Source of the DNA: an uncultured bacterium
GTDB lineage: Bacteria > Patescibacteriota > Minisyncoccia > Phycocordibacterales > UBA9973
Assembly: GCA_903894565.1 (NCBI GenBank)
Contig: CAITQP010000005.1
Location: forward strand, 28,971-92,970
Direction: 5' to 3'
Length of the DNA stretch: 64,000 bases
Below are positions 6,744-47,547 of the stretch, one piece after another. The notes beneath the pieces were generated by a model, which ran no database searches, was not told the DNA's origin, and saw only the letters and a program-made list of their open reading frames with translations. The position numbers were made by a program, and so were the translations under genes. The stretch's first letter is position 1. The number at the start of each line of letters is the position of its first letter.

Positions 6744-7661
6744 ATGGCAAATAGGCACCTTTCACGGTCAATCGTTCTCCAAACCCTCTTCGAGTGGGAT
6801 TTTAAAGGTCACCAAACAGAAGGCGTCGAAGAGATGCTTGAGCGCAATGAAGGCGAGTTTGCACCCGGAAACGAAGATTTGCAGTTCATGAAAAAGATTC
6901 TCAGCTATGTCATCGACAAGCGTGAGATTATTGATCAGATCATCGAGAAAGCTGCGCCTGAATGGCCAATTGAAAAGATTAATGCGGTTGATCGAAACAT
7001 TCTTCGTATGGGTCTTGGTGAATTGCTCTTTGGTGATCACAACGAAGTGCCACCAAAGGTTGCTATAAACGAGGCAATCGAACTCGCGAAAACATTCGGA
7101 GGTGATAGTTCGTCACGATTTGTGAACGGAGTACTTGGCGCTGTCTACAAAGAAATCGGCGAACCGGGCAAGGACCAGACATCGAAGCGTCAAAAGAAAC
7201 TCGACGAAGTAGATATTGCGAAGCTTCCTGTTGAACAAAAAGCAGGTGCTCTCATTTATGCACGCGACGGCGAGGAATTGTATTTCGCACTCGTGCATGA
7301 CATTTTTGGATACTGGACCCTTTCGAAGGGTGGCGTTGAAGGGGATGAGACAGCTGAGCAAGCTGCAATTCGTGAGATCAAAGAAGAGTGTAATCTCGAT
7401 ATTACAATCAAAGAAAAAATTGGTGAGAGTGAGTACGTCGCGTCGCATCCAGAAAAAGGCAAAATCAAAAAGCGTGTTACATTCTTCCTTGCAGAATCTC
7501 CTTACGTTCCGGTCACACTCGAAAATCATTCTGGAGGACTCGACGATGTACGATGGTTTACGCTTGCTGAAGTTGCAAGTCTCAAAATGTATGATGACGT
7601 GACTGGGTATATGGCGAATGCCATCACGACTCTCGTTGGAGACAATAGTGGTGCTGAATAA
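6744..7661 (+). CDS. nusB: NusB antitermination factor fused to a C-terminal NUDIX hydrolase domain
   Basis: N-terminal ~140 aa NusB fold (ILRMGLGELLF..., VAINEAIELAKTFGGDSSSRFVNGVLGAV). C-terminal ~140 aa with Nudix box GGVEGDETAEQAAIREIKEECNL. Continuous 305-aa ORF, stop TAA. Confidence 0.75.
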   Translation: MANRHLSRSIVLQTLFEWDFKGHQTEGVEEMLERNEGEFAPGNEDLQFMKKILSYVIDKREIIDQIIEKAAPEWPIEKINAVDRNILRMGLGELLFGDHNEVPPKVAINEAIELAKTFGGDSSSRFVNGVLGAVYKEIGEPGKDQTSKRQKKLDEVDIAKLPVEQKAGALIYARDGEELYFALVHDIFGYWTLSKGGVEGDETAEQAAIREIKEECNLDITIKEKIGESEYVASHPEKGKIKKRVTFFLAESPYVPVTLENHSGGLDDVRWFTLAEVASLKMYDDVTGYMANAITTLVGDNSGAE

Positions 7662-13844: not shown

Positions 13845-14150
13845 ATGTTAATGATCCGAATGCAACGAATAGGTCGCAAGAACGAGGCGCATTTCCGCAT
13901 CGTTTTGACCGATCACAAGAACGCAGCAAAGTCTGGTAAATTCCAGGAGATTCTTGGTGCCTACAACCCAAAGGCTGGGGAGGTCACTATCAAAGAAGAT
14001 CGTGTAAAGCACTGGATGAGTGTTGGTGCTCAGCCATCTGACACTGTTTATAACTTCCTCGTCACAAAGGGTATCGTTGTCGGAAAGAAAAAGAACGTAC
14101 TCTCACGCAAGGCTCCAACTAAGAAGCGCAAAGAACTCAAAGCTGCGTAA
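13845..14150 (+). CDS. rpsP: 30S ribosomal protein S16
   Basis: MIRMQRIGRKNEAHFRIVLTDHKNAAKSGKFQEILGAYNP... canonical S16. Confidence 0.9.
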   Translation: MLMIRMQRIGRKNEAHFRIVLTDHKNAAKSGKFQEILGAYNPKAGEVTIKEDRVKHWMSVGAQPSDTVYNFLVTKGIVVGKKKNVLSRKAPTKKRKELKAA

Positions 14151-14247: not shown

Positions 14248-14357
14248 AAACGACTTTCCAAAAATGCTGATGTGAGGTATTATGCTTCCTAAGCAGTAGG
14301 GTCGGAACTATTGCATAGTATATGTATTGCATTAACAGAATTTCAGTTTAGTACACC

Positions 14358-14669
14358 ATGGAACAGGATACAGCATTTCTTGAATACGTAGTAAAAGCAC
14401 TCGTCGACAACCCTAATGATGTGAAGATCGAGCGTACCGTCGATGAGATGGGCGTGCTCGTGAAGCTCACCGTCAACCCCGCAGATATGGGCAAGATCAT
14501 CGGCCGCCAAGGCAACACAGCTAAGGCTATCCGCACATTGCTCCGTGTCATCGGCATGAAGAATAATTCGCGCGTCAATTTGAAGATCAACGAACCAGAT
14601 GGCGGTACAAAAGCTGCTGGAATCGAAGAGACTTTTGATGAGGCAATGGCTGATTTGAAGAACATGTAG
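14358..14669 (+). CDS. KH-domain RNA-binding protein (YlqC/KhpA-like)
   Basis: GKIIGRQGNTAKAIRTLL KH motif. Located downstream of rpsP as in the rpsP-ylqC-rimM-trmD arrangement. Stop TAG. Confidence 0.8.
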   Translation: MEQDTAFLEYVVKALVDNPNDVKIERTVDEMGVLVKLTVNPADMGKIIGRQGNTAKAIRTLLRVIGMKNNSRVNLKINEPDGGTKAAGIEETFDEAMADLKNM

Positions 14670-14694
14670 TTTTGGAATTAGGAATATTTTTGAA

Positions 14695-14724
14695 GCAAAA
14701 GACACCCGTAAGGGTGTTTTTTGC
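14695..14724 (+). terminator. Intrinsic terminator after the KH gene
   Basis: GCAAAAGACACCC-GTAA-GGGTGTTTTTTGC hairpin followed by a T-tract. Confidence 0.55.
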
Positions 14725-14810
14725 TTGTGTAAAAAAAATGGAATAGTTACAATAGTAATTATTACTATTATTCCTTGCGAACCGTAGGTAGGTTCACAAG
14801 TCAGTATGAT

Positions 14811-16145
14811 ATGAGTTTTTGGAATAACCCCGAAAATAACGCAGTAAAGGTTTTGCTTCTTGTTGTTGTTTTGGCGGGTGCTGGTTTTTTTGTGGTAAAT
14901 GGTGCTCATTCGGGTACTGGAAGTGCGACTGGTCAAGTTATTGTTGCTTCACAAACAAGTACACAATCACCTGCAGGAATGCTTCCTCCTGGTGTTGGAG
15001 CTGTTAATTCAATTGGTGTACCAGCGAATGCTCCGACTACGCCAAGTGGCTCGTCTACAACTGGTACTACTACTGGTGGTGGAGTAGGTGCTGGTACGAG
15101 CGGTACTGGAGCTACACCACCAACAGCAACTCTCTTTCCAGCGATTAATATTGGAGCAAATCCTACTGGATCACTCGCTTCTGCAATGAAGGTCTTGTAC
15201 GTTCAAGGAACGTCAGTCTTTGCAGGTGGTGTAGGCATCCGCGGACAGCTCGGTGTGGCTCAGAATGATGGGAGTACTGTCTCAACGAGCGCTCCTGGAT
15301 ATAACACTATCTATGTACAAGGCGTTCCTGTTTGTTTGAGAGATGGTTCAAACTGTCCTCAGTCAGGCGCTTCGATGGGATCAAATAATGCAGGTACAGC
15401 AGCTGCTCCTTCATCTGTTTTGCCTTTTACATCAAAAGGACCAGTCACTTCACAAGGAGCTTGGATTGGTTGGAATAATCTTACCGGTGGTACTGGTGAG
15501 ACAGATTTCATTAATAATAAAGGTGAGGGTACGGGAGGATTCGCATTTATGAATGGAGGCAATGGTAGTCCATCTGCACCATCTGAGAAAGTTCTCGGTA
15601 CGCTCGATGACACAGGAACATTGTCTGTCCCTGGTTCAGTAAATGCTTTGAACGAATCTCATTTTGGAGTTGGAGGAAAATATATCGATCCAGCTCCAGG
15701 TGTTCCAGTTGCATTGAAGGCAAATTCAATCGCGACAGGAAAATTGGTTGTGGATGGTGAAGTACCAATTATGCGTATTAACCCTGCTTGTTTTGAAGGG
15801 GACACAAAATGGTTTAATCCGTTTCCTATGCCTTTTGATTCAAATACTCTCTCGAATATGTTTATTGGTACGGTTTCTCTTCCGTTTCAGATATTAAATC
15901 AAGCCGGAATTCTTGCTAAAAATTTATTGAACGTAGTTTTTGGCGGAGGAAATAACTGGAACGACAGCATCTTGAAATCTTCAGTTATACTTACAACAAG
16001 TACTGGTTGTTATAACAAGAATGGAACATATTATAGTAATGCCGATTATGGAATTTTCGGGTTCGTTCTTCCTGGTATTCCACCAAAGAATGCTAGTACA
16101 GATATAATCAATAAATACACATTACTTGGTACGGGGCATAAATAA
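14811..16145 (+). CDS. Membrane-anchored Gly/Thr/Ser-rich low-complexity surface protein
   Basis: N-terminal hydrophobic anchor (VKVLLLVVVLAGAGFFVV), then long G/T/S/A/P-rich low-complexity region and a C-terminal globular part. No recognisable enzymatic motif. Start at ATG 14811 (ORF track starts 14775). Confidence 0.6.
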   Translation: MSFWNNPENNAVKVLLLVVVLAGAGFFVVNGAHSGTGSATGQVIVASQTSTQSPAGMLPPGVGAVNSIGVPANAPTTPSGSSTTGTTTGGGVGAGTSGTGATPPTATLFPAINIGANPTGSLASAMKVLYVQGTSVFAGGVGIRGQLGVAQNDGSTVSTSAPGYNTIYVQGVPVCLRDGSNCPQSGASMGSNNAGTAAAPSSVLPFTSKGPVTSQGAWIGWNNLTGGTGETDFINNKGEGTGGFAFMNGGNGSPSAPSEKVLGTLDDTGTLSVPGSVNALNESHFGVGGKYIDPAPGVPVALKANSIATGKLVVDGEVPIMRINPACFEGDTKWFNPFPMPFDSNTLSNMFIGTVSLPFQILNQAGILAKNLLNVVFGGGNNWNDSILKSSVILTTSTGCYNKNGTYYSNADYGIFGFVLPGIPPKNASTDIINKYTLLGTGHK

Positions 16146-22297: not shown

Positions 22298-22996
22298 ATG
22301 CATTTCTACGTTATAACACTATTTCCCGAAGCCTTTGATTCATATCTCAATGAGTCAATCATTGGTCGTGCAATCAAAGAAAAACGGATCAAAGTCACGT
22401 TTGTAAATCCGCGAATGTTCGTCTCGGGCAAGAAGTACAAACGCGTATGGCCTGACGGCAACGTGTCACGCATCGTGGATGATCGTCCATTCGGTGGAGG
22501 CCCGGGAATGATTATCCGCGCGGAACCTGTCTTGAAAGCGGTTGAAAGTATTGCGAAGAAAATTGCAAAAAAAGAGAATCGAAAAACAAAAATCATTCAC
22601 TTCAGTCCGAGCGGAACAAAATTTACAACGAGCTACGCGAAAGCGACCGTGAAGAAATATACCGATGTCGTTATGCTGTGCGGACGATATGAGGGGATCG
22701 ATGCGCGTGTTGCGAAGATATTGAAAGCAGAAGATGTTTCAATTGGAGATTATGTGCTCACGGGAGGGGAGCTTCCAGCGATGGTGCTCATCGATTCGAT
22801 GGCGCGCCAAATCCCTGGCGTGCTCGGCACATTCGATTCGCTCGAAGAAGAGCGTGTCTCGTCGAGCGAATTCTATACTCGCCCAGAAGTGCTCGAATGG
22901 AAGAAAAAAAAATATGCAGTGCCACCCGTCCTCCTCTCAGGCGACCACAAGAAAATTGAAGCATGGAAAATGGAACACAATAAAAAAGAACCGTAA
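22298..22996 (+). CDS. trmD: tRNA (guanine37-N1)-methyltransferase
   Basis: MHFYVITLFPEAF... SPOUT/TrmD motifs, 232 aa. Confidence 0.9.
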   Translation: MHFYVITLFPEAFDSYLNESIIGRAIKEKRIKVTFVNPRMFVSGKKYKRVWPDGNVSRIVDDRPFGGGPGMIIRAEPVLKAVESIAKKIAKKENRKTKIIHFSPSGTKFTTSYAKATVKKYTDVVMLCGRYEGIDARVAKILKAEDVSIGDYVLTGGELPAMVLIDSMARQIPGVLGTFDSLEEERVSSSEFYTRPEVLEWKKKKYAVPPVLLSGDHKKIEAWKMEHNKKEP

Positions 22997-23021
22997 TATT
23001 TATCTATTACGGTTCTTTTTT
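22982..23021. terminator. Bidirectional hairpin terminator overlapping the trmD stop
   Basis: AAAAAAGAACCGTAAT-ATTTATCT-ATTACGGTTCTTTTTT, between trmD (+) and the convergent gene 23028-23579 (-). Confidence 0.5.
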
Positions 23022-23027
23022 GATTTC

Positions 23028-23579
23028 TTAGAAAATGTTAGAACGATATTCGTCCTCTTTTGTAATCAAGGCGAGATAACCGTTTTTTAACATAAGGTTT
23101 TTTTTCATATCAACAAAAGGCCACAGGTATAAAAGTGCGTTCGCAATTGTAATACTTGTAATTACAAGAATGTGTACTTCGTCTCTCGAATTAAATGTAT
23201 CGAGACACAGGGTGAATGCTGACGTTGCTTCCATCCAGTAATCACTTGCCCGCATATCATTCATGTATTCAAGACGCTTGCCATTAGGATCCAAATCCAC
23301 GTTTATTTGGTTAAATAATGAAGTACCGGTGAGTTGATATCTTCCATTGTATCCTTGAAGCACTTCCATTGAGATTGTGAACAGAGGATCATTCGCTTGA
23401 CCTGTCAGCAAATGGGTGATAACAGGTGTTGATTTCGTAATTTTTCCAGCTAGATGATTTTTCGTTTCTAAATCTAGATTTTGCGGATTTACCGCGACGA
23501 TTGTTATTGTTGATTTTATCATTGGTACAAGTTTTGATACTTTATACAACATTTTTATAAATTTAGCAAGCATGGGCAA
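23028..23579 (-). CDS. Hypothetical protein (183 aa, C-terminal hydrophobic segment)
   Basis: ORF with no recognisable motif. Divergent from the Cys-rich gene. Confidence 0.45.
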   Translation of the reverse strand: MPMLAKFIKMLYKVSKLVPMIKSTITIVAVNPQNLDLETKNHLAGKITKSTPVITHLLTGQANDPLFTISMEVLQGYNGRYQLTGTSLFNQINVDLDPNGKRLEYMNDMRASDYWMEATSAFTLCLDTFNSRDEVHILVITSITIANALLYLWPFVDMKKNLMLKNGYLALITKEDEYRSNIF

Positions 23580-23627
23580 AAATAGTATTCACTAGAACAC
23601 GAACTGCGCTCATGGTACTGTTAGTGC

Positions 23628-23792
23628 ATGCAAGAAACACACACGTGTCGTATCTGCTCACATGACTTCGCTATAACCGAGGAGGATTTTGGATTTTATG
23701 AGAAGATGGCCGTGCCTGCGCCAACACTTTGTGCTGAGTGCCGTCAACAACGTCGCTACGCATGGCGCAACGAGCGCACATTGTATCGCTGA
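23628..23792 (+). other. 54-codon zinc-ribbon module (CxxC-x27-CxxC) ending at an in-frame TGA; apparent N-terminal part of the downstream Cys-rich gene
   Basis: ATG 23628: MQETHTCRICSHDFAITEEDFGFYEKMAVPAPTLCAECRQQRRYAWRNERTLYR-TGA(23790-23792)-TCDFCGK... Same frame as the 23820 ORF. Homologous to the C-terminal module of that ORF. Confidence 0.55.
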
Positions 23793-23819
23793 ACGTGCGA
23801 CTTTTGTGGCAAAAGTACG

Positions 23820-25319
23820 GTGACAATTTATTCTCCAAACAAACCATTCAAAGTATATTGTGTTCCGTGTTGGTGGAGTGACGGTTGGGATCCCGCAAGC
23901 TTCGGACGTGACTACGATTTCTCACGACCGTTTTTTGAACAATTTAGCGGGCTCCAACATGAGGTGCCACGCATGGCATTACTCACGAAAAATAGTATCA
24001 ATTCTGAATACACAAATCATTCCGGTGATAATAAAAATGTGTATCTTTCCTTTGCTGCTTTTGGATCAGAGAATGTATGGTACAGCACCTGGGCCATGAA
24101 GTCTCGTGACTGCATGGACTGTAGTTTTATTGCCGACAAAGGTGAGCGTTTATATTTTGTTTCTGATTCTCGCACTTCGTATAAGTGTCAGTACGGAATT
24201 TTCTTGAAAGACTGTTCCTCGTGTCACTACGTATACGATGCTCACGGATGTACTAATTGTTTTATGTCGTCGAATATGCGAAACAAGAGCTACATGTTTC
24301 GGAATGAGCAATGCACTCGAGAAGAATATTTTCAAAAAATGCAGGAAATTGATTTGTCTTCATTCGAGACGAGAGAAACATTGAGTGAAGAGTTCGAAGT
24401 GCTAATGGAAATTGGTTCCATACATCGTTATGTCGTTAGTGAGCGCAATGCTAACTCAATTGGGTCTCTTATGTACGATTGTAAAAACGTTACTGATTCT
24501 TTTGAAACAAACAAATGTGAGGACTCTAAATATATTTATGGTGGAATAGAAAATAGAAACTGCGCGGATATTTACCATGTTGGCTATAACGTTGAACTTT
24601 GTTACGAACTGCAAGGCTGTACTCGAGTGACGAATTCAGCGTTTTGTCATTTGTGCTACGACAATACGTTTTTGCAGTATTGTGATTCCTGCCAGAATAG
24701 TCAGAATTTGTTTGGGTGTGTATCGATAAAAAAAGGTGAGTACATGATTCTCAATAAAAAATATTCCAAAGAGGAATATACTTATCTTCGCGCGAGAATC
24801 ATCGAGCAGATGAAATCGACTGGTGAGTATGGTGAATTTTTCCCACCAAATATTGCACCTGTGTATTACAACGAAACACAAGGCGCACTCTATATGCCAC
24901 TCTCGAAAGAGGAAACGCTTGCTCGTGGCTGGCAGTGGGAAGACAACCTTCCAGGGACATACGGCAAAGAGACGGTCACTCCGGAGAATGTACCTGATTC
25001 GATTCTCGAGGTGTCAGACTCAGCGACCAAAGAAATTTATCGTTGCATGACGTGCACGAAGAATTTTAATATCGTACCTGATGAACTCGCGTTCTATCGT
25101 CGAGAAATAATTCCACTTCCGCGCCGCTGCCCTGATTGTAGATACAAACGTCGTTTTGCACTTCGTCCACCACGCAAGCTCTGGCCGAGGACATGTATGT
25201 GTACACGGACGAATCACGAACACGGAGATACGTGTCCGAACACATTCGAGACTCCATTTGCCCCCGAACGACCTGAACAGGTATTTTGTGAAGCGTGTTA
25301 TCAGCAGGAAGTGATATAA
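23820..25319 (+). CDS. Cys-rich multi-zinc-ribbon protein (about 28 Cys, about 4 CxxC-pair ribbons); no Met start of its own unless translation continues from the upstream segment
   Basis: 499-aa ORF from GTG 23820: ...CDFCGK..CVPCWW..., many CxxC pairs. C-terminal module CMTCTKNFNIVPDELAFYRREIIPLPRRCPDCRYKRR. Stop TAA. Confidence 0.7.
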   Translation: MTIYSPNKPFKVYCVPCWWSDGWDPASFGRDYDFSRPFFEQFSGLQHEVPRMALLTKNSINSEYTNHSGDNKNVYLSFAAFGSENVWYSTWAMKSRDCMDCSFIADKGERLYFVSDSRTSYKCQYGIFLKDCSSCHYVYDAHGCTNCFMSSNMRNKSYMFRNEQCTREEYFQKMQEIDLSSFETRETLSEEFEVLMEIGSIHRYVVSERNANSIGSLMYDCKNVTDSFETNKCEDSKYIYGGIENRNCADIYHVGYNVELCYELQGCTRVTNSAFCHLCYDNTFLQYCDSCQNSQNLFGCVSIKKGEYMILNKKYSKEEYTYLRARIIEQMKSTGEYGEFFPPNIAPVYYNETQGALYMPLSKEETLARGWQWEDNLPGTYGKETVTPENVPDSILEVSDSATKEIYRCMTCTKNFNIVPDELAFYRREIIPLPRRCPDCRYKRRFALRPPRKLWPRTCMCTRTNHEHGDTCPNTFETPFAPERPEQVFCEACYQQEVI

Positions 25320-26808: not shown

Positions 26809-27105
26809 ATGGCTGAGAAAAAAGTAGTAGCAAAAAAAACAGTTGCAAAAAAAGCAGGAGGAACATCTGCATTTATGAAACCAATGAACATCAGTGACGA
26901 GCTTGCGCTCGTTGTTGGAAAAGGCCCAATGCCTCGTTCAGAAGTAGTGAAGGCTCTCTGGGCTTACATCAAGAAGAATAAACTTCAGGATGAGAAAAAC
27001 AAGCGCAATATCAACGCTGACGACAAACTCAAGGCCGTCTTCGCAGGAAAGAAGGTCGTGAACATGTTCGAAATGACAAAGCTCGTTTCTGCACACCTTT
27101 CCTAA
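26809..27105 (+). CDS. Standalone SWIB/MDM2-domain protein with a Lys/Ala-rich N-terminal tail
   Basis: LALVVGKGPMPRSEVVKALWAYIKKNKLQDEKNKRNINADDKLKAVFAGKKVVNMFEMTKLVSAHL matches the SWIB-domain consensus. N-terminus MAEKKVVAKKTVAKKAGG. Confidence 0.8.
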   Translation: MAEKKVVAKKTVAKKAGGTSAFMKPMNISDELALVVGKGPMPRSEVVKALWAYIKKNKLQDEKNKRNINADDKLKAVFAGKKVVNMFEMTKLVSAHLS

Positions 27106-27122
27106 TCAGAGGCATGCGATGT

Positions 27123-27155
27123 AAAAACCACAAGAGGTAATCTCTTGTGGTTTTT
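27123..27155 (+). terminator. Intrinsic terminator after the SWIB gene
   Basis: AAAAACCACAAGAG-GTAAT-CTCTTGTGGTTTTT. Confidence 0.65.
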
Positions 27156-27190
27156 AGTTTTCGTTTAACATGCAGTGATACAGTATCAAT

Positions 27191-27499
27191 ATGAATATCG
27201 AAACGATCACTTCGCAAATCGATGACTTCATTTTGAAGCTTAAACCGGAAACGCGAGCTCGGGTGATTCGAGTCATAGAATTGCTCGAAAAATACGAAAA
27301 TAAGCTTGGCATGCCTTTCAGTAAAAGCATCGGGAATGCCTTGTTTGAACTTCGTATAATAGGAAAGGAACATATTCGCATTGTGTATTGTTTCCATAAG
27401 AATACTATTTTCTTACTTACTGTTTTTAACAAGAAAACAAGCAAGATTCCTCGATCTGAAATTGAACTCGCAAAGAAAAGAAGAAAAATGCTTGTATAA
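27191..27499 (+). CDS. Type II toxin, RelE/ParE superfamily (HigB/Gp49-like)
   Basis: 102 aa, ...SIGNALFELRIIGKEHIRIVYCFHKNTIFLLTVFNKKTSKIP... typical of HigB-like mRNA interferases. Upstream of an XRE antitoxin. Confidence 0.75.
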   Translation: MNIETITSQIDDFILKLKPETRARVIRVIELLEKYENKLGMPFSKSIGNALFELRIIGKEHIRIVYCFHKNTIFLLTVFNKKTSKIPRSEIELAKKRRKMLV

Positions 27500-27527
27500 C
27501 GTATATGGTATATGGTATCATATACAA

Positions 27528-27797
27528 ATGACACGATTTAAAAAAGTAAAAAAAATTGCACTCAAAGACCCCGGTACTCGAAAAGCATACAGAGAAATGG
27601 ATCTTGAGTTTTCGATAGTCAGCCAAATCATTGAAAAACGAATTCAGCTCGGATTGTCTCAAAAGGACCTTGCACTTAAAATTGGTACGAAGCAACCCTC
27701 GATTGCGCGATTTGAGTCGGGTACATACAACCCAACAGTCGTATTTTTACAGAAGGTTTCAAGAGCGCTCGGCGGAGAACTGAAAATAACCATATAA
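27528..27797 (+). CDS. HTH XRE-family antitoxin (HigA-like)
   Basis: LGLSQKDLALKIGTKQPSIARFESG helix-turn-helix, 90 aa, immediately downstream of the toxin. Confidence 0.75.
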   Translation: MTRFKKVKKIALKDPGTRKAYREMDLEFSIVSQIIEKRIQLGLSQKDLALKIGTKQPSIARFESGTYNPTVVFLQKVSRALGGELKITI

Positions 27798-34954: not shown

Positions 34955-36751
34955 ATGTCTTCTTCAGTTGAAAAAATTAAGGAACGACTCTCCATTGTTG
35001 ATGTGATTTCTTCGTACTTAAAACTCGAAAAATCAGGAAGTAATTATAAAGCTCCATGTCCTTTTCACAACGAAAAAACACCGTCATTTTTTATTTCGCC
35101 GTCACGCAATAGTTACTATTGTTTCGGATGTGGTGCCAAAGGCGACATTTTTACGTTCGTCGAGCAGTTTGAGGGACTCGATTTCAAAGGATCCCTCAAG
35201 CAACTCGCCGCACGTGCTGGTGTTGATCTTGAACCATATCGTGGTAGTGACCCGAAAGAAAAAAATGAAAAGGATCGCCTTCACGAACTCATGGAAGCGG
35301 CGTGTGTGTTCTATCAATCAGAATTGAAGACATGTTCCGATGCACTTCTGTATCTCACGAAGCGTGGTGTCAAAGATATGACACTCGCAAGTTTCCGTAT
35401 CGGATATGCGCCAAAGGAATGGCGAGTACTTGCGAATGCACTCCGCAAACAAGGCTTCACTGATGCTGAGATTGTGCTCGCTGGTCTTGCGAAACATCCT
35501 GATGAAAATCCGACTGGCGATATCTATGATCGCTTTCGTGATCGAGTCATGTTTCCGATCAGTGACACGAGTGGACGCATCATCGCGTTCAGTGGACGAA
35601 TGCTTCATGATGATGGTTCTGGCATGCAAGGCAAATATATCAACTCACCAGAGACTCCCATTTTTAAAAAGGGAAGTACGCTCTATGGTCTTGATAAGGC
35701 AAAGTTTGAAATCAGAAAACGCGATGCTGCTATCCTTGTCGAAGGACAAATGGATTTAGTACTATCGCATCAGGCGGGATTTACGAATACAGTTGCTTCA
35801 AGCGGCACAGCACTTGGTGATTCACTCATCGCTGATACAGACAAAGGTTTGCTTTCAGGACTCGGTGCTGTGCACGCGCTCACCAAGAATCTCATTGTGG
35901 CATTTGATGCTGACAAAGCTGGACTCCGTGCAGCCGGTCGCGCTGAGAAGATTGGATTGTCGCTTGGGATGAATGTGAAGATCGCCAAACTTCCGTCTGG
36001 CCTCGATCCAGCAGATACCATTCTTGAAAAAGGTGCAGAAGAATGGAAAAAGATTGTTGATACAGCACAGCACATTGTCCTCTTATACCTCTCTGTGCTC
36101 ATGGAACATCCACTGAGTGAACTCACACGTACACGTGCGATTCGAGACAAGATTTTGCCGTATATTGCAGTTATGCCGAGTGCTGTCGAGCGAGTACACT
36201 TCATCCGTGAAATTGCGGTGAAGACGGGTATTCCTGAAGAAGCACTCGCTGAAGATGTCGTTCGATTGCTCGTTGCAACACCAGCACCTTCGCCAAAAAA
36301 TCAGTCACAATTGGTGCAACCAAATACAGTGAATGCAGGAATCGTGCGAACGACACGTATCCTCGATCGATTGCTCGGTGTTGTCTTTTGGCAAGAGACA
36401 CTTCCTCAGTCTGTCATCCCGCTCGATTCTGTGAAAGATCGAATCAAAAGTATCATTGGCGAAGAACAGCTCATCGGGATGCTCGCAATGCCAAATGACA
36501 AAAAGAATGAACGTATTTTCGAAGTCGAACTTGTGTATCAAGATTCAAAAGATTTGAAAGAAGACGTCGAGGAATTACTCGACAATTTAGAAGAAGAAAC
36601 GCTCGGAAGGGCACTCGAGGCTTTGATGGCGAAGATGTCGCACGCTGAGAGAGGTGAAGATGGCGAAGTCCTCCAATCATTACTCGCCGAATCACAGAAG
36701 ATAAGCACACGTCTCAACACCATTAAAAGCAGTCGATTTTTACATAATTAA
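34955..36751 (+). CDS. dnaG: DNA primase
   Basis: CHC2 zinc finger CPFHNEKTPSF, TOPRIM domain. Start at ATG 34955, the first in-frame ATG after the rpoC stop (34876-34878). Confidence 0.9.
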   Translation: MSSSVEKIKERLSIVDVISSYLKLEKSGSNYKAPCPFHNEKTPSFFISPSRNSYYCFGCGAKGDIFTFVEQFEGLDFKGSLKQLAARAGVDLEPYRGSDPKEKNEKDRLHELMEAACVFYQSELKTCSDALLYLTKRGVKDMTLASFRIGYAPKEWRVLANALRKQGFTDAEIVLAGLAKHPDENPTGDIYDRFRDRVMFPISDTSGRIIAFSGRMLHDDGSGMQGKYINSPETPIFKKGSTLYGLDKAKFEIRKRDAAILVEGQMDLVLSHQAGFTNTVASSGTALGDSLIADTDKGLLSGLGAVHALTKNLIVAFDADKAGLRAAGRAEKIGLSLGMNVKIAKLPSGLDPADTILEKGAEEWKKIVDTAQHIVLLYLSVLMEHPLSELTRTRAIRDKILPYIAVMPSAVERVHFIREIAVKTGIPEEALAEDVVRLLVATPAPSPKNQSQLVQPNTVNAGIVRTTRILDRLLGVVFWQETLPQSVIPLDSVKDRIKSIIGEEQLIGMLAMPNDKKNERIFEVELVYQDSKDLKEDVEELLDNLEEETLGRALEALMAKMSHAERGEDGEVLQSLLAESQKISTRLNTIKSSRFLHN

Positions 36752-41765: not shown

Positions 41766-43013
41766 ATGGAGCAAGTGTTTAGCTTTATATTCTATATTTT
41801 CACCTTTCTCGCCGTTTACGTCGAGGTTTTTTTTCTTGTCACATACCTTGAGCGCCGCAAAGACATCGTTGTTCGACTCGATGATAAGCCCAATCGTGTT
41901 TACCCAAGCGTAACGGTTATTGTTCCGTGCTGGAACGAACAGACAACTGTTCAAGGTACAGTTGAATCATTGCTCGCGCTTGATTACCCAAAAGACAAAA
42001 TCAAAATAATGCTTGTTGATGACGGCTCTACCGATAATACATGGAATGTATTACAACAATTTGCGCATACTCCTAATATCGAAGTGATCCACAAGGAGAA
42101 TGGTGGCAAACATACAGCAATGAATCTTGGTATCGAAAAAGCAACAACAGAAATGATTGGTTGTTTGGATGCTGACTCATATGTAACACCATCCGCTTTG
42201 AAGCGAATGATTCCATATTTTGATGAGCCAGGTGTGATGGCGGTTTCTCCTTCGATTATTGTCAAAGATCCAAAACGACCGATTGAGTGGGCACAAAAAA
42301 TCGAATACCAGCTCTCCGTATATATTAAAAAAATGCTTGGGTTGATGAATGGTATTCACGTAACCCCTGGGCCATTCTCTATCTATCGTATCGAAGTATT
42401 CCAGCAACTTGGCCCGTACCGCGAAGCTCACAAAACTGAAGATATGGAGATTGCGTATCGTATGCATGAGGCTGGTATGCGTATCGAGCAGTGTCATGAT
42501 GCACAAGTCTTTACCAAGACTCCGCCAACTGCTGTAGCGCTGTACAAACAACGCAAGCGTTGGATTTATGGTTTTATCAATAACACTATTGATTATCGCC
42601 GTTTGATATTTAAAGAAAAGTACGGCGCGTTCGCGCTCTTCACGATTCCAGCAGGAGTTGTTTCGATTTTTTCCGCAATATATCTGTTCATTTTTATGAT
42701 CTATACGTTTGTAAAATTTATTACAAATAAATTTGTTCAATTTCAAGCCGTTGGCGTTCATGTGAGTACCGTTGTTCAACCACAGCAATTTAGCTGGTTT
42801 TATGTAAGTACTCAAGCTGTATTTCTCATCACAGTCCTTTTGTATGGATTCGTATTTACTTCGCTTATGATTGGTGCAAGGATGTCGACGGGGAAGTGGA
42901 AGCCGTCATTCGCCATGGTGTGGTATATCGCAATCTATAGTATTATTGCACCACTGTGGATTATGCGGGCTGTGATTAATACCGTGTTCAGACGTGAGAC
43001 GGCGTGGAGATAA
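41766..43013 (+). CDS. Processive family-2 glycosyltransferase (polysaccharide synthase; PgaC/cellulose/chitin-synthase-like)
   Basis: N-terminal TM, GT-A core with DDGSTD, DAD, and Q(R)xRW motif (KQRKRW), then 3-4 C-terminal TM helices. Confidence 0.8.
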   Translation: MEQVFSFIFYIFTFLAVYVEVFFLVTYLERRKDIVVRLDDKPNRVYPSVTVIVPCWNEQTTVQGTVESLLALDYPKDKIKIMLVDDGSTDNTWNVLQQFAHTPNIEVIHKENGGKHTAMNLGIEKATTEMIGCLDADSYVTPSALKRMIPYFDEPGVMAVSPSIIVKDPKRPIEWAQKIEYQLSVYIKKMLGLMNGIHVTPGPFSIYRIEVFQQLGPYREAHKTEDMEIAYRMHEAGMRIEQCHDAQVFTKTPPTAVALYKQRKRWIYGFINNTIDYRRLIFKEKYGAFALFTIPAGVVSIFSAIYLFIFMIYTFVKFITNKFVQFQAVGVHVSTVVQPQQFSWFYVSTQAVFLITVLLYGFVFTSLMIGARMSTGKWKPSFAMVWYIAIYSIIAPLWIMRAVINTVFRRETAWR

Positions 43014-43032
43014 CAGAATTAATTTTATATAT

Positions 43033-43716
43033 ATGAATCAAAACAATACAACAAATGTAGAACATGATACTGGCTGGTCAAAATACCTCGTTGTTTTTCT
43101 TATTACCCTTGGTATTTTTGTAACTATTTTTTATGTAAGTGATGTATTAACCAAGCGAAAACTCGCTGAGCTTAATACTATTCAGAATAATATTTCTGTA
43201 GACCTTCTTTCAGCAGAAACTCAGTATTCGCTCCTTGGTGAATTAGATTGTTCTCAGGTAACAAGTACGGTACTTTCTGACCAATTGAATGATCTTTCAA
43301 AAAAGATTGAGTATCTTGAGAATTCGAGTGGTAAATCTGACGAACTTACACAGCTTGAAAAACAATATTCATTGCTTGAAATTAAAGACTACCTTCTCAT
43401 GAAAGAGATCACGAATCGTTGTGGTCAGAAATCAGTTTTTATCTTGTATTTCTATACAACAAGTGACAACTGTAGTGAGTGTGTGAAGCAAGGCTATGTA
43501 CTTACCGATCTTCGACAAAAATATCCAGCGCTCCGCGTGTACTCATTCGACTATGGATTGAACCTCTCTGCAGTTGAGACACTCATCAAGATTTATGATA
43601 TTAAGGACACCGAACTTCCAGCGCTTGTGTCTGATAGGCAGGTGTATACGGGATTCCATAGTGTTGCAGATATCGAAAAACTGATTCCGAAGCTGAAGGC
43701 GACGTTGCCGAAATAG
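43033..43716 (+). CDS. Membrane-anchored thioredoxin-like protein with CxxC (CSEC) motif
   Basis: TM anchor (YLVVFLITLGIFVTIFYV), then ...VFILYFYTTSDNCSECVKQGYVL... resembling a TlpA/ResA-like fold. Start at ATG 43033. Stop TAG. Confidence 0.5.
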   Translation: MNQNNTTNVEHDTGWSKYLVVFLITLGIFVTIFYVSDVLTKRKLAELNTIQNNISVDLLSAETQYSLLGELDCSQVTSTVLSDQLNDLSKKIEYLENSSGKSDELTQLEKQYSLLEIKDYLLMKEITNRCGQKSVFILYFYTTSDNCSECVKQGYVLTDLRQKYPALRVYSFDYGLNLSAVETLIKIYDIKDTELPALVSDRQVYTGFHSVADIEKLIPKLKATLPK

Positions 43717-44127: not shown

Positions 44128-47100
44128 ATGTCAAATAAAGCACCCGCACCCGCACCCGCACCCGCACCTACACCTGCAAACGAAAAACAGGTTTTTAAGG
44201 CTGCTATCGTAAACACCACGAAGATGGTGGAAGCGCATATTACTGATGTTGCGGACGCTCGCATGACGGCCTCAAAAGAGGACCGAAACAAGAATTGGTT
44301 TAAACGAAAGATTGATAAAATTTGGAAGCATGATCTCATGCAGGAATTTTATCGTCAACGTGAAATATCAAAAGTTCGAAAGGAAATTGCGGATACGGGC
44401 AATTTTTATGCTGGAGACAAAGAGATCATTGATTCAAACGAAGCCAAGGAAGCGATGCTTGCAATTACAGATCGTTTTACCGACGAGCTTCGTGACGAAA
44501 TGTTGACAAAGGAAGAGAAAGATTCGATTGATGAGAATTCGCGTTCCAGCCAGGAAATGAATGATCTCGTACGCAAATATGCTGATACAACGCATGTAAT
44601 GTCAGATCAGGCATTTGAGGAAGAAAAGAAGCGTATAATCGCAAATCTTGACCCAACGTACAAAGACAAACGTGAGGTATATGCCGACAATATACTTGAG
44701 ATAGCAAAAAACGTTCGCCAAGCGGTTGCCAACGGTCAGAAGCTTGAAGAGCTCGACTTTGACGTTGATATTACACTCGGAAGTACCCGTGGACGCATGC
44801 AAACAGCAGCGCACCACAATGCCTTTGATAAGGGTGTTGAAAAACTACAGAATTCAAAACTCGGGAAGTTCCTTGTGAATACTCCAGGTGCTATCGCGCT
44901 CTCAGCAGCAGTTTATTCAGTGGGCAAATATGCATTTACAAAAGTTGCACGTACTGATGCAGCAAAAATTGCGAGTTTTGGTGGTACGGCAGTGATCTCA
45001 GGAACTGTTGCGGCTACAAAAGAAGCTGCACGTTTGAACCGCGAGCGTGCTCAGCATCATCGCGAAAAAGCCAAAGGAGTTACATTTGAGGGTGACGACA
45101 TGAAGCGTCGTAACTCAATGAATACTACTTCATACGAAACACAAAAAGCTACGGAAGTCACCACACTGCTTGCGGGTGATCTCGCGAAGGTTGAAGCTGG
45201 CAATATGCAGCCTGCTGACCTTGATATGATTATCGCGCACATCGCAAATCTTCGCGCTCGAAAGTCGCTTGGAGAAGATCGTCATATTGACCTTGTTACT
45301 TACTCTAGTTTAAAGATGATGGAGAAAGAGGGTAAAGAGCTCGACAAAACCGAGGCTAAATTGGTTGTGGCTCTTCGTAAAGGAGTCGAATCTGGAAAGA
45401 TAGTTTTCGACAAAGAGACAGATGATTTTGATACATATCTGAGTCAGCAAATATATACGCAAGAACGTGCGTTGCTTGGTGGTGAATCTGGTATCGAAAA
45501 AAAGGATCAAGCGTTTACTAAAATGAAAGCGAAGCGCACTGCTTGGGCTTTTGTGAAGTCAGCAACACTTGGTGCCGGTATCGGGGCTGTATTCCAAGAA
45601 GCGCATGCCCTCCTTTCTGACGATCTCGACGGAGTACTTGAGGGTATGAGTAAACACTTACATCAGGGCACGACAGGTGGCTTTACAGAGCACGCTACAG
45701 CGCTTGAGGCACTGCGTCGCCACTTCAACCACGAAGACGTTCCTCGACTTGCAGATACGGGTGCAGGTCACGAGTATCTTATGAATGGTGGTGCAACAAC
45801 AATGCACACTCCAGATGGAGCAACGGTTACCGTGAATCCAGATGGTACATACAATATCATGCGAGGTAATGACGTGCTTGAGAAGAATCTTCCACTAGAG
45901 TTTGATAAGACGACTGGAGATCTTCTGCCAACATCCCGTGCATTGCTTCAAAAAGATGGAATTTTTGCGAACTTCAGCCAGACGACACAGCATGGTAGTG
46001 GCCCAATGAGTGCGGAGGATTACATCAAGAGTCACAATGGTGATTTTACCAAAGTCCACCGACATACTTTCTATGACAATAATACTGCTGATAAACCAGA
46101 CTTGAACGAAAAACGCGAGTATTGGGGCGGCGAGAATGGAACCGGTGTCAATGCGAAAGGAAACTATGAATTTAGAACGGGCGTAAAGGCAGGTGGATCA
46201 TTCCATGGGAATGATGCATTCGATGTACCTGAAGCAATCAAAAAAGGCGGAATCGTAAAGATGGCATTCTCGGTCACTCGTGGGACTCAGCATGAAGTTA
46301 TCATGCTTCCAGTGTCATCTGTTGATGAACACGGTAATGCAATATTTGAAATCGACAAGGACAGTGCTCTCGGTAAGGATTTGTTCGAAGTGAACGCGGA
46401 TGGACATGCCGTTTTCAAAGGCCAATTTGCCGAACTTATTGAAGACTCAGGCAAAGCAGCTGATGGAGCAGAGAACATCAATATCATTGCAACGCACATC
46501 GGACTTGGACAAGCTGATACTATTGTTGGAGGGGTAGACAAAGTCGTGCCACATCTTAAACTGGATATTCCTGGTTCGTGGGATTATGAAATGCCAATGG
46601 TTGTTCCAATCTTGGGACGTCGTCCACTTGAATCAGGCAAGGCGCCTGCTAAAAAGAAGCGACCAAATGAGGACCCACACGGACCAGCTGATCCAAACGC
46701 ACCAACGCCACATGGACCTGACGGCGTACCGCTCAAAGCTAAGGATAAACTTCCTCCAAGTAAGTTTACAATTCGAAAATTCGTTGGAGAAAAGCCTGAG
46801 GACAAATATTCTGGTCTTACACAGGACTTAGAAGTATATGAGAAAGCTCGATTGGCTGGTGGTTCTGAATTTTCTGTAAATAGTAAGGATTTGAAATCAA
46901 CAGGCTTCAAAGAAATTTTAAGAAAGCACGCTCAAGTGACTAAAACACCAGGATCGGATGAAGAGACGTATGCCGTTACGCTTGATGCACGCGGAAAAAT
47001 TGCTGATGCATTATATAAGGCAAATCAGGCTGAGGTCAAAAGAAGTAATCTAAAAGTCCAAGCAATGGGTCACAATCCGCTTTTGGAAGATCTCGATAAG

Positions 47101-47547
47101 TATGCCCACGAGACTATGAAACCTGTGTCAAAAGAAGATTTTACAAAAAAATATCTTCCAAAGTTGATTCAAGAAGCATTCCGCGGATATGGAAATATCG
47201 AGGTGCCTGATAATGCATTTTTGTCCTCGAAGTCACGTGTTCTGCCTGCGAATGAATTCGTCGGGAACCTTGATATCAAAGTGAAGCCTTCGAAAGGAAG
47301 CAAAAAGGTTGATGCCAAGATCGACAATCTTAAATTCATAATGAAGGACGGCAAATTGGAGGTAGCGAAAGGATATACATTTACGAATCCAGATGAAACG
47401 AAGGATGTTCGCGATACTGTAAATAAGGTATTAACGGACTTCGGAAGCGTTTTCGACAAGGATCTTTCAGGCCTATTCGGTGAAAAACTTAAGAGCTTGA
47501 AGATGAATGGAGGTAACGTTGATGTTCTTACAACCAAGAAAGTATAA
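44128..47547 (+). CDS. Giant (1139 aa) membrane-associated hypothetical protein with N-terminal (Ala-Pro)n repeat and a Pro-rich linker
   Basis: MSNKAPAPAPAPAPTPA..., hydrophobic helices near residues ~250-320 and ~515-540, linker KKKRPNEDPHGPADPNAPTPHGPDGVP. No known domain recognised. Confidence 0.65.
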   Translation: MSNKAPAPAPAPAPTPANEKQVFKAAIVNTTKMVEAHITDVADARMTASKEDRNKNWFKRKIDKIWKHDLMQEFYRQREISKVRKEIADTGNFYAGDKEIIDSNEAKEAMLAITDRFTDELRDEMLTKEEKDSIDENSRSSQEMNDLVRKYADTTHVMSDQAFEEEKKRIIANLDPTYKDKREVYADNILEIAKNVRQAVANGQKLEELDFDVDITLGSTRGRMQTAAHHNAFDKGVEKLQNSKLGKFLVNTPGAIALSAAVYSVGKYAFTKVARTDAAKIASFGGTAVISGTVAATKEAARLNRERAQHHREKAKGVTFEGDDMKRRNSMNTTSYETQKATEVTTLLAGDLAKVEAGNMQPADLDMIIAHIANLRARKSLGEDRHIDLVTYSSLKMMEKEGKELDKTEAKLVVALRKGVESGKIVFDKETDDFDTYLSQQIYTQERALLGGESGIEKKDQAFTKMKAKRTAWAFVKSATLGAGIGAVFQEAHALLSDDLDGVLEGMSKHLHQGTTGGFTEHATALEALRRHFNHEDVPRLADTGAGHEYLMNGGATTMHTPDGATVTVNPDGTYNIMRGNDVLEKNLPLEFDKTTGDLLPTSRALLQKDGIFANFSQTTQHGSGPMSAEDYIKSHNGDFTKVHRHTFYDNNTADKPDLNEKREYWGGENGTGVNAKGNYEFRTGVKAGGSFHGNDAFDVPEAIKKGGIVKMAFSVTRGTQHEVIMLPVSSVDEHGNAIFEIDKDSALGKDLFEVNADGHAVFKGQFAELIEDSGKAADGAENINIIATHIGLGQADTIVGGVDKVVPHLKLDIPGSWDYEMPMVVPILGRRPLESGKAPAKKKRPNEDPHGPADPNAPTPHGPDGVPLKAKDKLPPSKFTIRKFVGEKPEDKYSGLTQDLEVYEKARLAGGSEFSVNSKDLKSTGFKEILRKHAQVTKTPGSDEETYAVTLDARGKIADALYKANQAEVKRSNLKVQAMGHNPLLEDLDKYAHETMKPVSKEDFTKKYLPKLIQEAFRGYGNIEVPDNAFLSSKSRVLPANEFVGNLDIKVKPSKGSKKVDAKIDNLKFIMKDGKLEVAKGYTFTNPDETKDVRDTVNKVLTDFGSVFDKDLSGLFGEKLKSLKMNGGNVDVLTTKKV
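44140..44163 (+). repeat. Hexanucleotide tandem repeat (GCACCC) x4 encoding the (Ala-Pro)n stretch
   Basis: gcacccgcacccgcacccgcaccc, in frame (2 codons per unit). Confidence 0.8.

What the first reader, a model, noticed from the sequence alone, without database searches (positions are those of the whole stretch)
23628..25319. A single in-frame TGA splits a Cys-rich multi-zinc-ribbon gene whose pre-TGA module duplicates its own C-terminal module
Seen in sequence: from ATG 23628 the frame reads MQETHTCRICSHDFAITEEDFGFYEKMAVPAPTLCAECRQQRRYAWRNERTLYR, then TGA (23790-23792), then TCDFCGKSTVTIYSPNKPFKVYCVPCWW... continuing in the same frame for 499 more codons to TAA at 25319. The 54-codon upstream piece is a CxxC-x27-CxxC zinc ribbon. 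The C-terminus of the long ORF carries the same module (CMTCTKNFNIVPDELAFYRREIIPLPRRCPDCRYKRR versus CRICSHDFAITEEDFGFYEKMAVPAPTLCAECRQQRR). A second CxxC..CxxC ribbon starts 2 codons after the TGA. The long ORF has no ATG of its own near its 5' end (the caller uses GTG 23820). This argues that the TGA interrupts one gene rather than separating two. Possible explanations are UGA recoding (selenocysteine or programmed/near-cognate readthrough), a recent nonsense pseudogene, or a base-call error. A 7-bp hairpin (ACTTTTG-TGG-CAAAAGT, 23800-23816) sits 7 nt downstream of the TGA, but it is short and AU-rich, so it is only weak support for a SECIS-like element. The protein family itself (about 28 Cys, about 4 zinc ribbons, internal repeats) has no assigned function.
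Basis: partly seen in the sequence, partly recalled or inferred. Interest (0 to 1): 0.8.

Follow-up and report, generated by a model that had tools for sequence, protein, structure and literature searches.

The report
Recent nonsense mutation in zinc-ribbon gene
A single recent C-to-T change turned a conserved arginine codon (CGA) into a TGA stop inside a conserved but uncharacterised zinc-ribbon gene of a Patescibacteria (CPR) genome, which makes it an ordinary young nonsense mutation and not selenocysteine or genetic-code recoding.

Summary
One in-frame TGA (23790-23792) interrupts a 563-codon gene (23628-25319). Its N-terminal double zinc ribbon duplicates its C-terminal one (E=2e-18).

The family has more than 6800 members in Patescibacteria, and almost all are about 563 aa and continuous through this site. 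The TGA position is Arg in 115 of 116 aligned homologs. It is never Cys, Trp or Gly.

The three closest relatives all read CGA there. In the nearest relative, the T/C at 23790 is the only difference in 183 nt.

No other lineage has a stop at this codon. That is 0 in the stop-codon scans of the species-genome and metagenome collections, against at least 120 genomes with Arg.

The claimed hairpin is no better than chance (z=+0.28). It is present unchanged next to CGA in the nearest relative and is not conserved further out. The rest of the gene shows no decay.

Family-wide, about 3-4% of gene copies carry sporadic stops (TAA, TAG and TGA mixed) or frameshifts at scattered sites.

Best reading: a very young CGA-to-TGA nonsense mutation. 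It is seen in three assemblies, but raw reads were not checked.

One thing remains unexplained. This genome and its two nearest relatives never use TGA as a stop (0 of about 50 genes here, against about 16-28% expected). That leaves a small chance (about 7%) that UGA terminates poorly here and is read through.

The parts
23628..23789 (+). Codons 1-54 of the interrupted gene. This is zinc ribbon 1 (C7, C10, C35, C38) plus the conserved linker RYAWRNERTLYR.
   Evidence: Translation. Weak PF13451 zf_Tbcl match at residues 4-43. Aligns to the N-termini of about 563-aa homologs.
23790..23792 (+). Premature TGA stop at codon 55. The ancestral codon was CGA (Arg), so this is a single C-to-T transition at 23790.
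   Evidence: Arg in 115/116 homologs. CGA in L129/L002, L130 and L128. It is the only difference from L129 across 23654-23836. In the scans, 0 genomes or metagenome contigs have a stop or Trp here, against at least 120 with Arg.
23793..25319 (+). Codons 56-563 plus the TAA stop. This is the intact remainder of the gene: zinc ribbon 2 (C57, C60, C78, C81), the central Cys-rich repeat region and the C-terminal double ribbon.
   Evidence: 8 mismatches at 270 columns that are at least 90% conserved, against a family median of 6. dN/dS of 0.06-0.10 against L002 outside the hypervariable centre.
23646..23882 (+). N-terminal double zinc-ribbon (treble-clef-like) module, residues 7-85. It spans the TGA.
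   Evidence: Homologous to the C-terminal module, E=2e-18. PF13451 and PF23477 matches below threshold. Model pLDDT 82-88.
23985..24737 (+). Central Cys-rich repeat region, residues about 120-370, modelled as beta-solenoid-like. Part of it (about 24100-24600) is hypervariable compared with the closest relative.
25044..25316 (+). C-terminal double zinc-ribbon module, residues 473-563. It is the internal duplicate of the N-terminal module.
   Evidence: pLDDT 80-95.
23800..23816 (+). It is a by-product of the codons for D-F-C-G-K-S and not a SECIS element.
   Evidence: z=+0.28. Same sequence in L129 beside CGA, and not conserved in L130 or L128. No Rfam hit.
22850..23905 (.). Tract that is about 97.5% identical to relative L129/L002, while the flanks are about 85% identical. 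It is a recent recombination or transfer tract and contains the TGA.
   Evidence: Sliding-window identity. dS=0.015 for codons 1-55, against 0.83-1.15 in flanking genes.
23028..23579 (-). 183-aa ORF of unknown function inside the near-identical tract. It is an insertion relative to L130.
   Evidence: No Pfam hit. Positive coding score. Present in L129 but absent in L130, where the TrmD-target spacer is 70 nt.

Best explanation
The TGA is a very recent C-to-T transition that changed the conserved Arg55 codon CGA into a premature stop. The gene it hits is a single ~563-codon gene, conserved across Patescibacteria, built from a double zinc ribbon, a Cys-rich solenoid-like core and a second double zinc ribbon.

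Shown: the gene is one unit. The ancestral codon is CGA. The change is private to this genome. It is the only substitution in its 183-nt neighbourhood, and the rest of the gene is undecayed.

Inferred: translation ends after 54 residues. Any product restarted at GTG 23820 or ATG 23973 would lack the invariant zinc ligands C57 and C60 and about 35 invariant or near-invariant N-terminal residues. This copy is therefore most likely a newly inactivated gene (a young pseudogene or strain-level loss-of-function allele), apart from whatever low-level UGA readthrough occurs.
For: - Homolog lengths of about 562-567 aa, continuous through the site.
- Arg in 115/116 homologs at the TGA column. Arg also at the matching position of the internal duplicate.
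- CGA in all three closest relatives, with identical flanking codons in L002/L129.
- T/C at 23790 is the only difference across 23654-23836, inside a tract that is 97.5% identical.
- No stop or Trp at this codon in the scans of species genomes or JGI metagenome contigs, against at least 120 with Arg.
- Three apparently truncated homologs turned out to be gene-caller or scaffold-gap artefacts.
- No decay elsewhere in the gene.
- The same sequence is found in the Logan ERR4193932 assembly (L001). The ERZ27313292 146-kb contig is 100% identical where it overlaps the window, and its length matches the longest contig carrying the truncated product P0001. No intact allele of this species exists in the protein collection: nothing lies between 79% and 100% identity.
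- Family-wide, about 3-4% of copies carry sporadic stops (5 TAA, 2 TAG, 3 TGA) or frameshift-like splits at scattered positions. Such disruptions are background events.
Against: - Raw reads were not inspected, and the three assemblies may derive from the same or related read sets. A consensus error or a mixed population is therefore not excluded.
- This genome and its two nearest relatives use no TGA stops at all (0/38 long ORFs, about 0/50 genes including short ones and the L126 extension, and 0/17 in L129+L130). The expectation is about 16-28%. It is therefore not certain that UGA terminates efficiently here.
- The gene's perfect preservation fits a very recent event, but it would equally fit continued expression.
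Confidence: 0.8

Rival explanations
1. UGA is a weak stop or no stop in this clade (RF2 lost or weak, codon nearly unassigned). The TGA at codon 55 is then read through by a near-cognate tRNA, for example tRNA-Arg(UCG) via a G-U pair at the first codon position, or tRNA-Trp. The gene would still yield full-length protein. This would be an incipient stage of UGA reassignment outside Gracilibacteria and Absconditabacteria.
For: - No TGA stops: 0/38 long ORFs and about 0/50 genes in the window plus L126, and 0/17 in relatives L129 and L130, all at GC of about 0.45. Expected: 28% for Patescibacteria of that GC and 16% (14/89) for relatives at 67-74% identity.
- The interrupted gene is otherwise perfectly conserved.
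- An intermediate-stage UGA reassignment has precedent in Ca. Providencia siddallii (PMC10540940).
Against: - Only one in-frame TGA exists in more than 16,000 confirmed codons. None falls at the 110 TGG, 146 CGA or 448 GGA codons, even though synonymous sites are near saturation against the closest relative (dS about 1). No reassignment is therefore established.
- The single case sits at an invariant Arg, and CGA-to-TGA is the classic transition that creates a nonsense codon.
- Low TGA usage (6-17%) is common in the wider group, and some 12-gene loci have none.
- The presence or absence of RF2 could not be tested. No release factor gene lies in the 74 kb seen.
Confidence: 0.07
2. Sequencing or assembly artefact, or a minority allele: the organism's real gene reads CGA and is intact.
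For: It is a single-base difference from the closest relative. All available assemblies may come from the same or related read sets. No raw-read inspection was possible.
Against: Independent assemblers give identical sequence: the window record, Logan L001, and a MEGAHIT-style contig in ERZ27313292. Only the truncated 448-aa product is on record for this species, on 4-5 contigs. Consensus substitution errors at normal coverage are rare.
Confidence: 0.08
3. Selenocysteine insertion at UGA, directed by a downstream SECIS-like hairpin.
For: There is an in-frame UGA in a Cys-rich protein, with a 7-bp hairpin starting 7 nt downstream.
Against: - The homologous residue is Arg and never Cys.
- The hairpin has z=+0.28, is present beside CGA in L129, and is not conserved in L130 or L128.
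- A 76-nt fold of the region gives z=-1.17.
- No Rfam family matches.
- No tRNA-Sec or sel genes lie in the window.
- No other family member has TGA at this codon.
Confidence: 0.01
4. A functional split: two separately translated products (a 54-aa ribbon peptide and a re-initiated protein of about 450-500 aa) that work together or independently.
For: GTG 23820 lies 27 nt after the TGA. Genes in this genome mostly lack Shine-Dalgarno motifs, so start sites are loosely defined. The public annotation calls a 448-aa product.
Against: - Any restart removes the invariant ligands C57 and C60 of ribbon 2.
- No homolog is naturally split here, and the apparent cases were artefacts.
- The 54-aa peptide is not called as a gene anywhere in the collection.
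Confidence: 0.04

Closest known systems
Ordinary premature-stop (nonsense) alleles and young pseudogenes in bacterial genomes, specifically CGA-to-TGA transitions
   Same: A single transition from the sense codon still present in all close relatives. It is private to one lineage. It leaves the rest of the ORF intact because the event is recent. Similar sporadic disruptions occur in about 3-4% of family copies.
   Different: Nothing substantive differs. The only unusual feature is the genomic background, which never uses TGA as a natural stop.
Bacterial selenoprotein genes (UGA-Sec with an adjacent SECIS hairpin)
   Same: An in-frame UGA in a Cys-rich protein, with a small hairpin downstream.
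   Different: Homologs have Arg and not Cys. The hairpin is not significant or conserved, and it is also present next to CGA. No Sec machinery was seen.
Genetic code 25 (UGA=Gly) of Gracilibacteria and Absconditabacteria, and code 4 (UGA=Trp)
   Same: The phylum is the same (Patescibacteria) and TGA is absent as a stop in this clade. One Absconditabacterales homolog (L013) shows the expected multiple in-frame TGAs.
   Different: In those codes TGA is frequent within most genes and sits at Gly or Trp positions. Here there is one TGA in more than 16,000 codons and it sits at an invariant Arg.
Intermediate-stage UGA reassignment in Ca. Providencia siddallii (Manzano-Marin et al. 2023, PMC10540940)
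   Same: A genome in which only some genes carry in-frame UGA. It serves as a model for an early stage of reassignment.
   Different: According to that paper's abstract and summary, the reassignment affects a portion of the proteome. Here there is a single instance at a non-Trp site, so no pattern supports reassignment.
Pfam zf_Tbcl (PF13451) and zf_Tbcl_2 (PF23477), 'probable treble clef' zinc-finger domains
   Same: The CxxC...CxxC modules at both ends match these profiles. Several homologs carry the precomputed annotation.
   Different: The window protein scores just below both gathering cut-offs (22.2 vs 24, and 16.8 vs 27). These domains have no assigned function, and the 563-aa architecture as a whole has no Pfam, NCBIfam or PDB relative.

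Membership tests
Premature-stop (nonsense) allele of an otherwise intact gene | Homologs are continuous through the stop position | tested here: met
   116 aligned homologs of about 562-567 aa span the site. Three apparently truncated ones are intact in their DNA or contain a scaffold gap.
Premature-stop (nonsense) allele of an otherwise intact gene | The stop is one substitution away from the sense codon found in the closest relatives | tested here: met
   CGA in L002/L129, L130 and L128, against TGA in the window.
Premature-stop (nonsense) allele of an otherwise intact gene | The stop is lineage-private, not conserved or recurrent at the site | tested here: met
   0 matches with TRR at codon 55 in the species-genome and JGI metagenome scans.
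Premature-stop (nonsense) allele of an otherwise intact gene | The base is real, i.e. supported by reads | tested here: inconclusive
   The locus sequence is identical in the Logan assembly (L001). The ERZ27313292 contig and the ENA/NCBI contig are on record as carrying the truncated 448-aa product. How independent the read sets are is unknown, and reads cannot be inspected with these tools.
Bacterial selenoprotein gene | UGA aligns with Cys (or Sec) in homologs | tested here: not met
   Arg in 115/116 and His in 1.
Bacterial selenoprotein gene | A stable, conserved SECIS stem-loop immediately 3' of the UGA | tested here: not met
   z=+0.28 for 41 nt and z=-1.17 for 76 nt. Not conserved in L130 or L128, and present with CGA in L129. 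No Rfam hit.
Bacterial selenoprotein gene | selA/selB/selD and tRNA-Sec in the genome | not testable with these tools
   None found in the 64-kb window plus the 9.5-kb extension.
UGA-reassigned genetic code (table 4 or 25) | In-frame TGA in many genes, at conserved Trp or Gly positions | tested here: not met
   This is the only real gene in the window with an in-frame TGA. 0 TGA in 16,381 confirmed codons elsewhere. The one site is Arg.
UGA-reassigned genetic code (table 4 or 25) | TGA is not used as a stop codon | tested here: met
   0/38 long ORFs. The apparent TGA-ending ORFs are antisense shadows of real genes. 0/6 further genes in L126 and 0/17 in L129+L130.
UGA-reassigned genetic code (table 4 or 25) | Loss of RF2 (prfB) and presence of a UGA-decoding tRNA | not testable with these tools
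   No release factor and only tRNA-Thr and tRNA-Ala in the window. The whole genome is unavailable.
Programmed stop-codon readthrough | The stop codon and its 3' context are conserved among orthologs | tested here: not met
   No ortholog has a stop at this site. The context is UGA-A. From general knowledge of E. coli, that is not the leakiest UGA context.
Pfam PF13451 zf_Tbcl / PF23477 zf_Tbcl_2 | Score at or above the Pfam gathering threshold | tested here: not met
   22.2 bits against a cut-off of 24, and 16.8 against 27. Some homologs carry these annotations precomputed, so the relationship is likely, but the window protein falls short of the threshold.

The most novel reading that the evidence does not exclude
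This small Patescibacteria clade (the window genome plus relatives L129 and L130, all at GC of about 45%) has stopped using UGA as a stop codon because RF2 is lost or ineffective. The CGA-to-UGA change at the invariant Arg55 would then be tolerated because UGA is decoded by a near-cognate tRNA. The result would be a snapshot of the unassigned-codon stage of stop-codon reassignment, in a CPR lineage outside Gracilibacteria and Absconditabacteria.
Probability: 0.07. Interest if true: 0.75.

Novelty: new member of a known kind. Interest (0 to 1): 0.17.

Why it matters
By itself it matters little. It is one more young nonsense allele in a metagenome-assembled genome, and annotators should mark the locus as a disrupted ~563-codon gene rather than as a 448/499-aa protein.

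Two by-products have some value:
- The interrupted gene belongs to a very large (>6800 members), strongly conserved (65-79% identity between species) and completely uncharacterised Patescibacteria family. Its architecture (double zinc ribbon, Cys-rich solenoid-like core, double zinc ribbon) has no solved or named relative.
- The host clade appears to avoid TGA stops entirely at 45% GC. That is cheap to check on the full MAG and would be interesting if it reflects loss of RF2.

Tried and rejected
- Selenocysteine/SECIS: rejected. The homologous residue is Arg. The hairpin is at chance level and not conserved. Rfam finds nothing.
- Recurrent or programmed stop at this site: rejected. 0 hits for TGA/TAA/TAG/TGG at codon 55 in the species-genome and JGI metagenome scans, against at least 120 for Arg.
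- Truncated homologs P0084, P0085 and P0105 as independent cases: rejected. They are intact in DNA, or interrupted by an N-run scaffold gap.
- A second TGA-terminated gene (14343-14936, minus strand): rejected. It is antisense to a KH-domain gene next to rpsP. The same applies to 27029-27397(-) and 35770-36204(-).
- Other in-frame TGA junctions in the window: all lie antisense to real genes.
- Established code change (UGA = Trp, Gly or Arg): rejected. No TGA occurs at any TGG, GGA or CGA position despite dS of about 1 against the closest relative.
- N-terminal clustering of stops in the family (which would suggest tolerated 5' truncation): not supported once the full length was surveyed. Stops fall at query positions 17, 38, 159, 196/205, 359, 401, 437 and 510, with mixed codons.
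- Finding RF2 or more of the genome: the right-flank look-up returned no DNA and one look-up found no record. The JGI scan found no clade member above 70% identity.
- Literature on RF2 loss or UGA status in non-Gracilibacteria CPR: nothing found.
Full report
**1. The observation**

The sequence is as described. ATG 23628 opens 54 codons and TGA follows at 23790-23792. The same frame then runs 508 more codons to TAA at 25317-25319. The conceptual product is 563 aa with 35 Cys and twelve CxxC motifs.

- 508 codons follow the TGA, not 499.
- The product is 563 aa, not 553.
- There are 35 Cys, not about 28.
- Ribbon 1 is CxxC-x24-CxxC, not x27.

The N-terminal/C-terminal duplication is real (BLASTP E=2e-18). 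The duplicated unit is the whole double ribbon (residues 1-85 against about 470-563). The N-terminal unit therefore runs across the TGA, and the C-terminal copy has Arg at the matching position (LWPR-TC against LYR*-TC). Pfam gives sub-threshold treble-clef matches, and one of them (zf_Tbcl_2, residues 50-82) spans the TGA.

**2. One gene, and what the TGA replaces**

A search of 5.8 billion proteins returned more than 6800 relatives. The source names point to Patescibacteria (Nomurabacteria, Minisyncoccia, Paceibacterota). Almost all of the best 120 are 547-582 aa.

In an alignment of 116 homologs, the TGA column is Arg in 115 and His in 1. It sits within the nearly invariant motif RYAWRNERTLYR-R-xCDLCxKS.

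Three hits that looked N-terminally truncated at this spot are not real cases. Two have intact upstream frames, so the gene caller simply started late. One has an N-run scaffold gap.

The closest relative is a syntenic ENA scaffold (L002/L129). It has CGA at codon 55 with identical flanking codons. The next two relatives (L130 at 79% and L128 at 74% protein identity) also have CGA. The window's TGA is therefore a derived C-to-T transition.

**3. Is the site special?**

I scanned for the conserved motif followed by TGA, TAA, TAG or TGG. It found nothing in 185,579 species genomes and nothing in the JGI metagenome collection.

I also surveyed about 330-450 family gene copies in all fetched loci. 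Sporadic internal stops occur at query positions 17, 38, 159, 196/205, 359, 401, 437 and 510/515. The codons are mixed (5 TAA, 2 TAG, 3 TGA). About five more genes show frameshift-like splits. Disruptions are therefore a scattered background of roughly 3-4%, with no preference for this site or for TGA.

**4. Age and state of the mutation**

Against L002, the flanking genes (FtsX, ABC ATPase, TrmD) have dS of 0.83-1.15 and dN/dS of 0.02. In contrast, codons 1-55 of the target have dS=0.015.

A sliding comparison shows a tract from about 22,850 to 23,905 that is about 97.5% identical. It sits between flanks of about 85% identity. Within 23,654-23,836 the only difference is the T/C at 23,790. The tract contains a 183-aa minus-strand ORF that is absent from L130. 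It therefore looks like a recently exchanged segment.

The rest of the gene shows no decay. It has 8 mismatches at 270 columns that are at least 90% conserved, against a family median of 6. About 40% of homologs have as many or more. dN/dS is 0.06-0.10 outside a hypervariable centre.

The same sequence, including the TGA, is in a Logan assembly of ERR4193932 (L001, 7347/7347 identical). A 146-kb contig of ENA assembly ERZ27313292 is 100% identical where it overlaps the window. Its length equals that of the longest contig on record carrying the truncated product P0001. The protein collection holds only this truncated 448-aa product for the species and no intact allele. I could not inspect reads, and I do not know whether the assemblies come from independent samples.

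**5. Recoding hypotheses**

Selenocysteine fails every test I could run:
- The homologous residue is Arg, not Cys.
- The hairpin at 23800-23816 folds at -6.1 kcal/mol with z=+0.28.
- The same hairpin sits beside CGA in L129 and is lost in L130 and L128.
- A 76-nt fold gives z=-1.17.
- Rfam finds only two tRNAs in the window, and ARAGORN finds no tRNA-Sec.

A functional split is unlikely. Any restart (GTG 23820 or ATG 23973) removes the invariant zinc ligands C57 and C60.

**6. An unexplained side observation**

No real gene in the window ends in TGA. With ORFs of at least 200 aa the count is 32 TAA, 6 TAG and 0 TGA. The TGA-ending ORFs that cruder lists produce are antisense shadows of rpsP/KH, SWIB/Gp49 and dnaG. 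Six further genes beyond the window's left end all end in TAA.

The two closest relatives, also at GC of about 0.45, give 14 TAA, 3 TAG and 0 TGA. With the same ORF picker, Patescibacteria loci at GC 0.43-0.47 use TGA for 28% of stops. Relatives at 67-74% identity use it for 16% (14/89).

This raises the possibility that UGA terminates poorly in this clade. Several points count against any established reassignment:
- There is no TGA among 16,381 confirmed codons. None falls at the 110 TGG, 146 CGA or 448 GGA positions.
- CGA codons turn over freely to CGT and CGC against L129, but never to TGA.
- The wider group tends towards low TGA use, and some 12-gene loci have none.
- No release factor gene lies in the 74 kb I could see, so RF2 status is untested.
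- The literature searches found no report of RF2 loss or a UGA change in non-Gracilibacteria CPR lineages. The best precedent for an intermediate stage is Ca. Providencia siddallii (PMC10540940).

**7. The protein**

The family has no PDB relative by profile search, no NCBIfam model and no literature under its Pfam names.

The architecture is therefore a double zinc ribbon, a Cys-rich solenoid-like core, and a second double zinc ribbon. Function remains unknown. By inference only, the paired treble-clef modules suggest nucleic-acid or protein binding.

Many genomes carry two or more paralogs, often in tandem. Redundancy could therefore cushion the loss of one copy. No paralog lies in the 74 kb seen here.

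**8. Verdict**

This is a single, very young CGA-to-TGA nonsense mutation in a conserved gene of unknown function (confidence about 0.8). It is an ordinary event and deserves a low interest score.

The residual rivals are a consensus error or minority allele (about 0.08), UGA readthrough in a clade that avoids TGA stops (about 0.07), a functional split (about 0.04) and Sec (about 0.01).

Noticed in passing
whole window 1-64000; L126 12233-21749; L129; L130: TGA is never used as a stop codon. The count is 0/38 ORFs of at least 200 aa (32 TAA, 6 TAG) and about 0/50 including short genes and the left-flank extension. The two closest relatives (GC about 0.45) give 0/17. The expectation is about 16-28% from other Patescibacteria loci. 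RF2 status is unknown.
   Followed up: partly
window 22850-23905: A tract of about 1 kb is about 97.5% identical to relative L129, while flanking genes are about 85% identical (dS about 1). It covers the 3' end of trmD, a 183-aa minus-strand ORF and the first ~90 codons of the target gene, and looks like a recent recombination or transfer tract.
   Followed up: partly
window 23028-23579 (-): A 183-aa ORF with no Pfam match lies between trmD and the target gene. It is present in L129 (164-aa call) but absent in L130, where the spacer is only 70 nt. It appears to be a lineage-specific insertion.
   Followed up: partly
window 24100-24600: The central part of the target gene is hypervariable against the closest relative: 46-60% nt identity, dN about 0.48 and synonymous sites saturated. 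Both ends of the gene are 80-100% identical. P0006/L129 seems to carry a central segment from a different subfamily, so the gene is mosaic.
   Followed up: partly
L155 (OCZT010035627.1), codon aligned to Cys38 of the family: A 61%-identical homolog has a single in-frame TGA exactly at the invariant zinc-ligand Cys (CPE-TGA-RQQRR), and the 525 downstream codons are intact. It is probably a nonsense mutation or an error, but a stop at a Cys is the pattern a Sec site would give.
   Followed up: no
L136 (SDBT01014435.1, GC 0.30): Two HSPs to family genes on this contig each contain an in-frame TGA, at query positions 196 and 205. The lineage may use an alternative code or carry pseudogenes.
   Followed up: no
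window 13845-14150 (+) and 14358-14669 (+): Two short genes, ribosomal protein S16 (rpsP, ends TAA) and a KH-domain protein (ends TAG), lie in a stretch that long-ORF lists leave empty. The 197-aa TGA-ending ORF at 14343-14936(-) is their antisense shadow.
   Followed up: yes
window 27191-27797 (+), next to 26809-27105: A Gp49-like toxin and HTH_3 antitoxin pair sits beside a SWIB-domain protein, immediately upstream of rpoB/rpoC.
   Followed up: no
window, upstream of about 22 ATG-start genes: Genes mostly lack recognisable Shine-Dalgarno motifs and the upstream regions are AT-rich. This suggests SD-independent initiation in this organism.
   Followed up: no
window 6744-7661 (+): NusB and a NUDIX hydrolase domain are fused in one 305-aa ORF.
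   Followed up: no
window 44128-47547 (+), 14775-16145 (+), 42994-43716 (+), 56897-57391 (+): Several ORFs have good coding potential but no Pfam match, including a 1139-aa protein and a Gly/Thr/Ser-rich 456-aa protein.
   Followed up: no
window 61023-62252 (+): The uvrC ORF is short (409 aa). Only the UVR and RNase H-like endonuclease domains were detected at E<=1e-5, and no GIY-YIG or HhH domain was reported.
   Followed up: no
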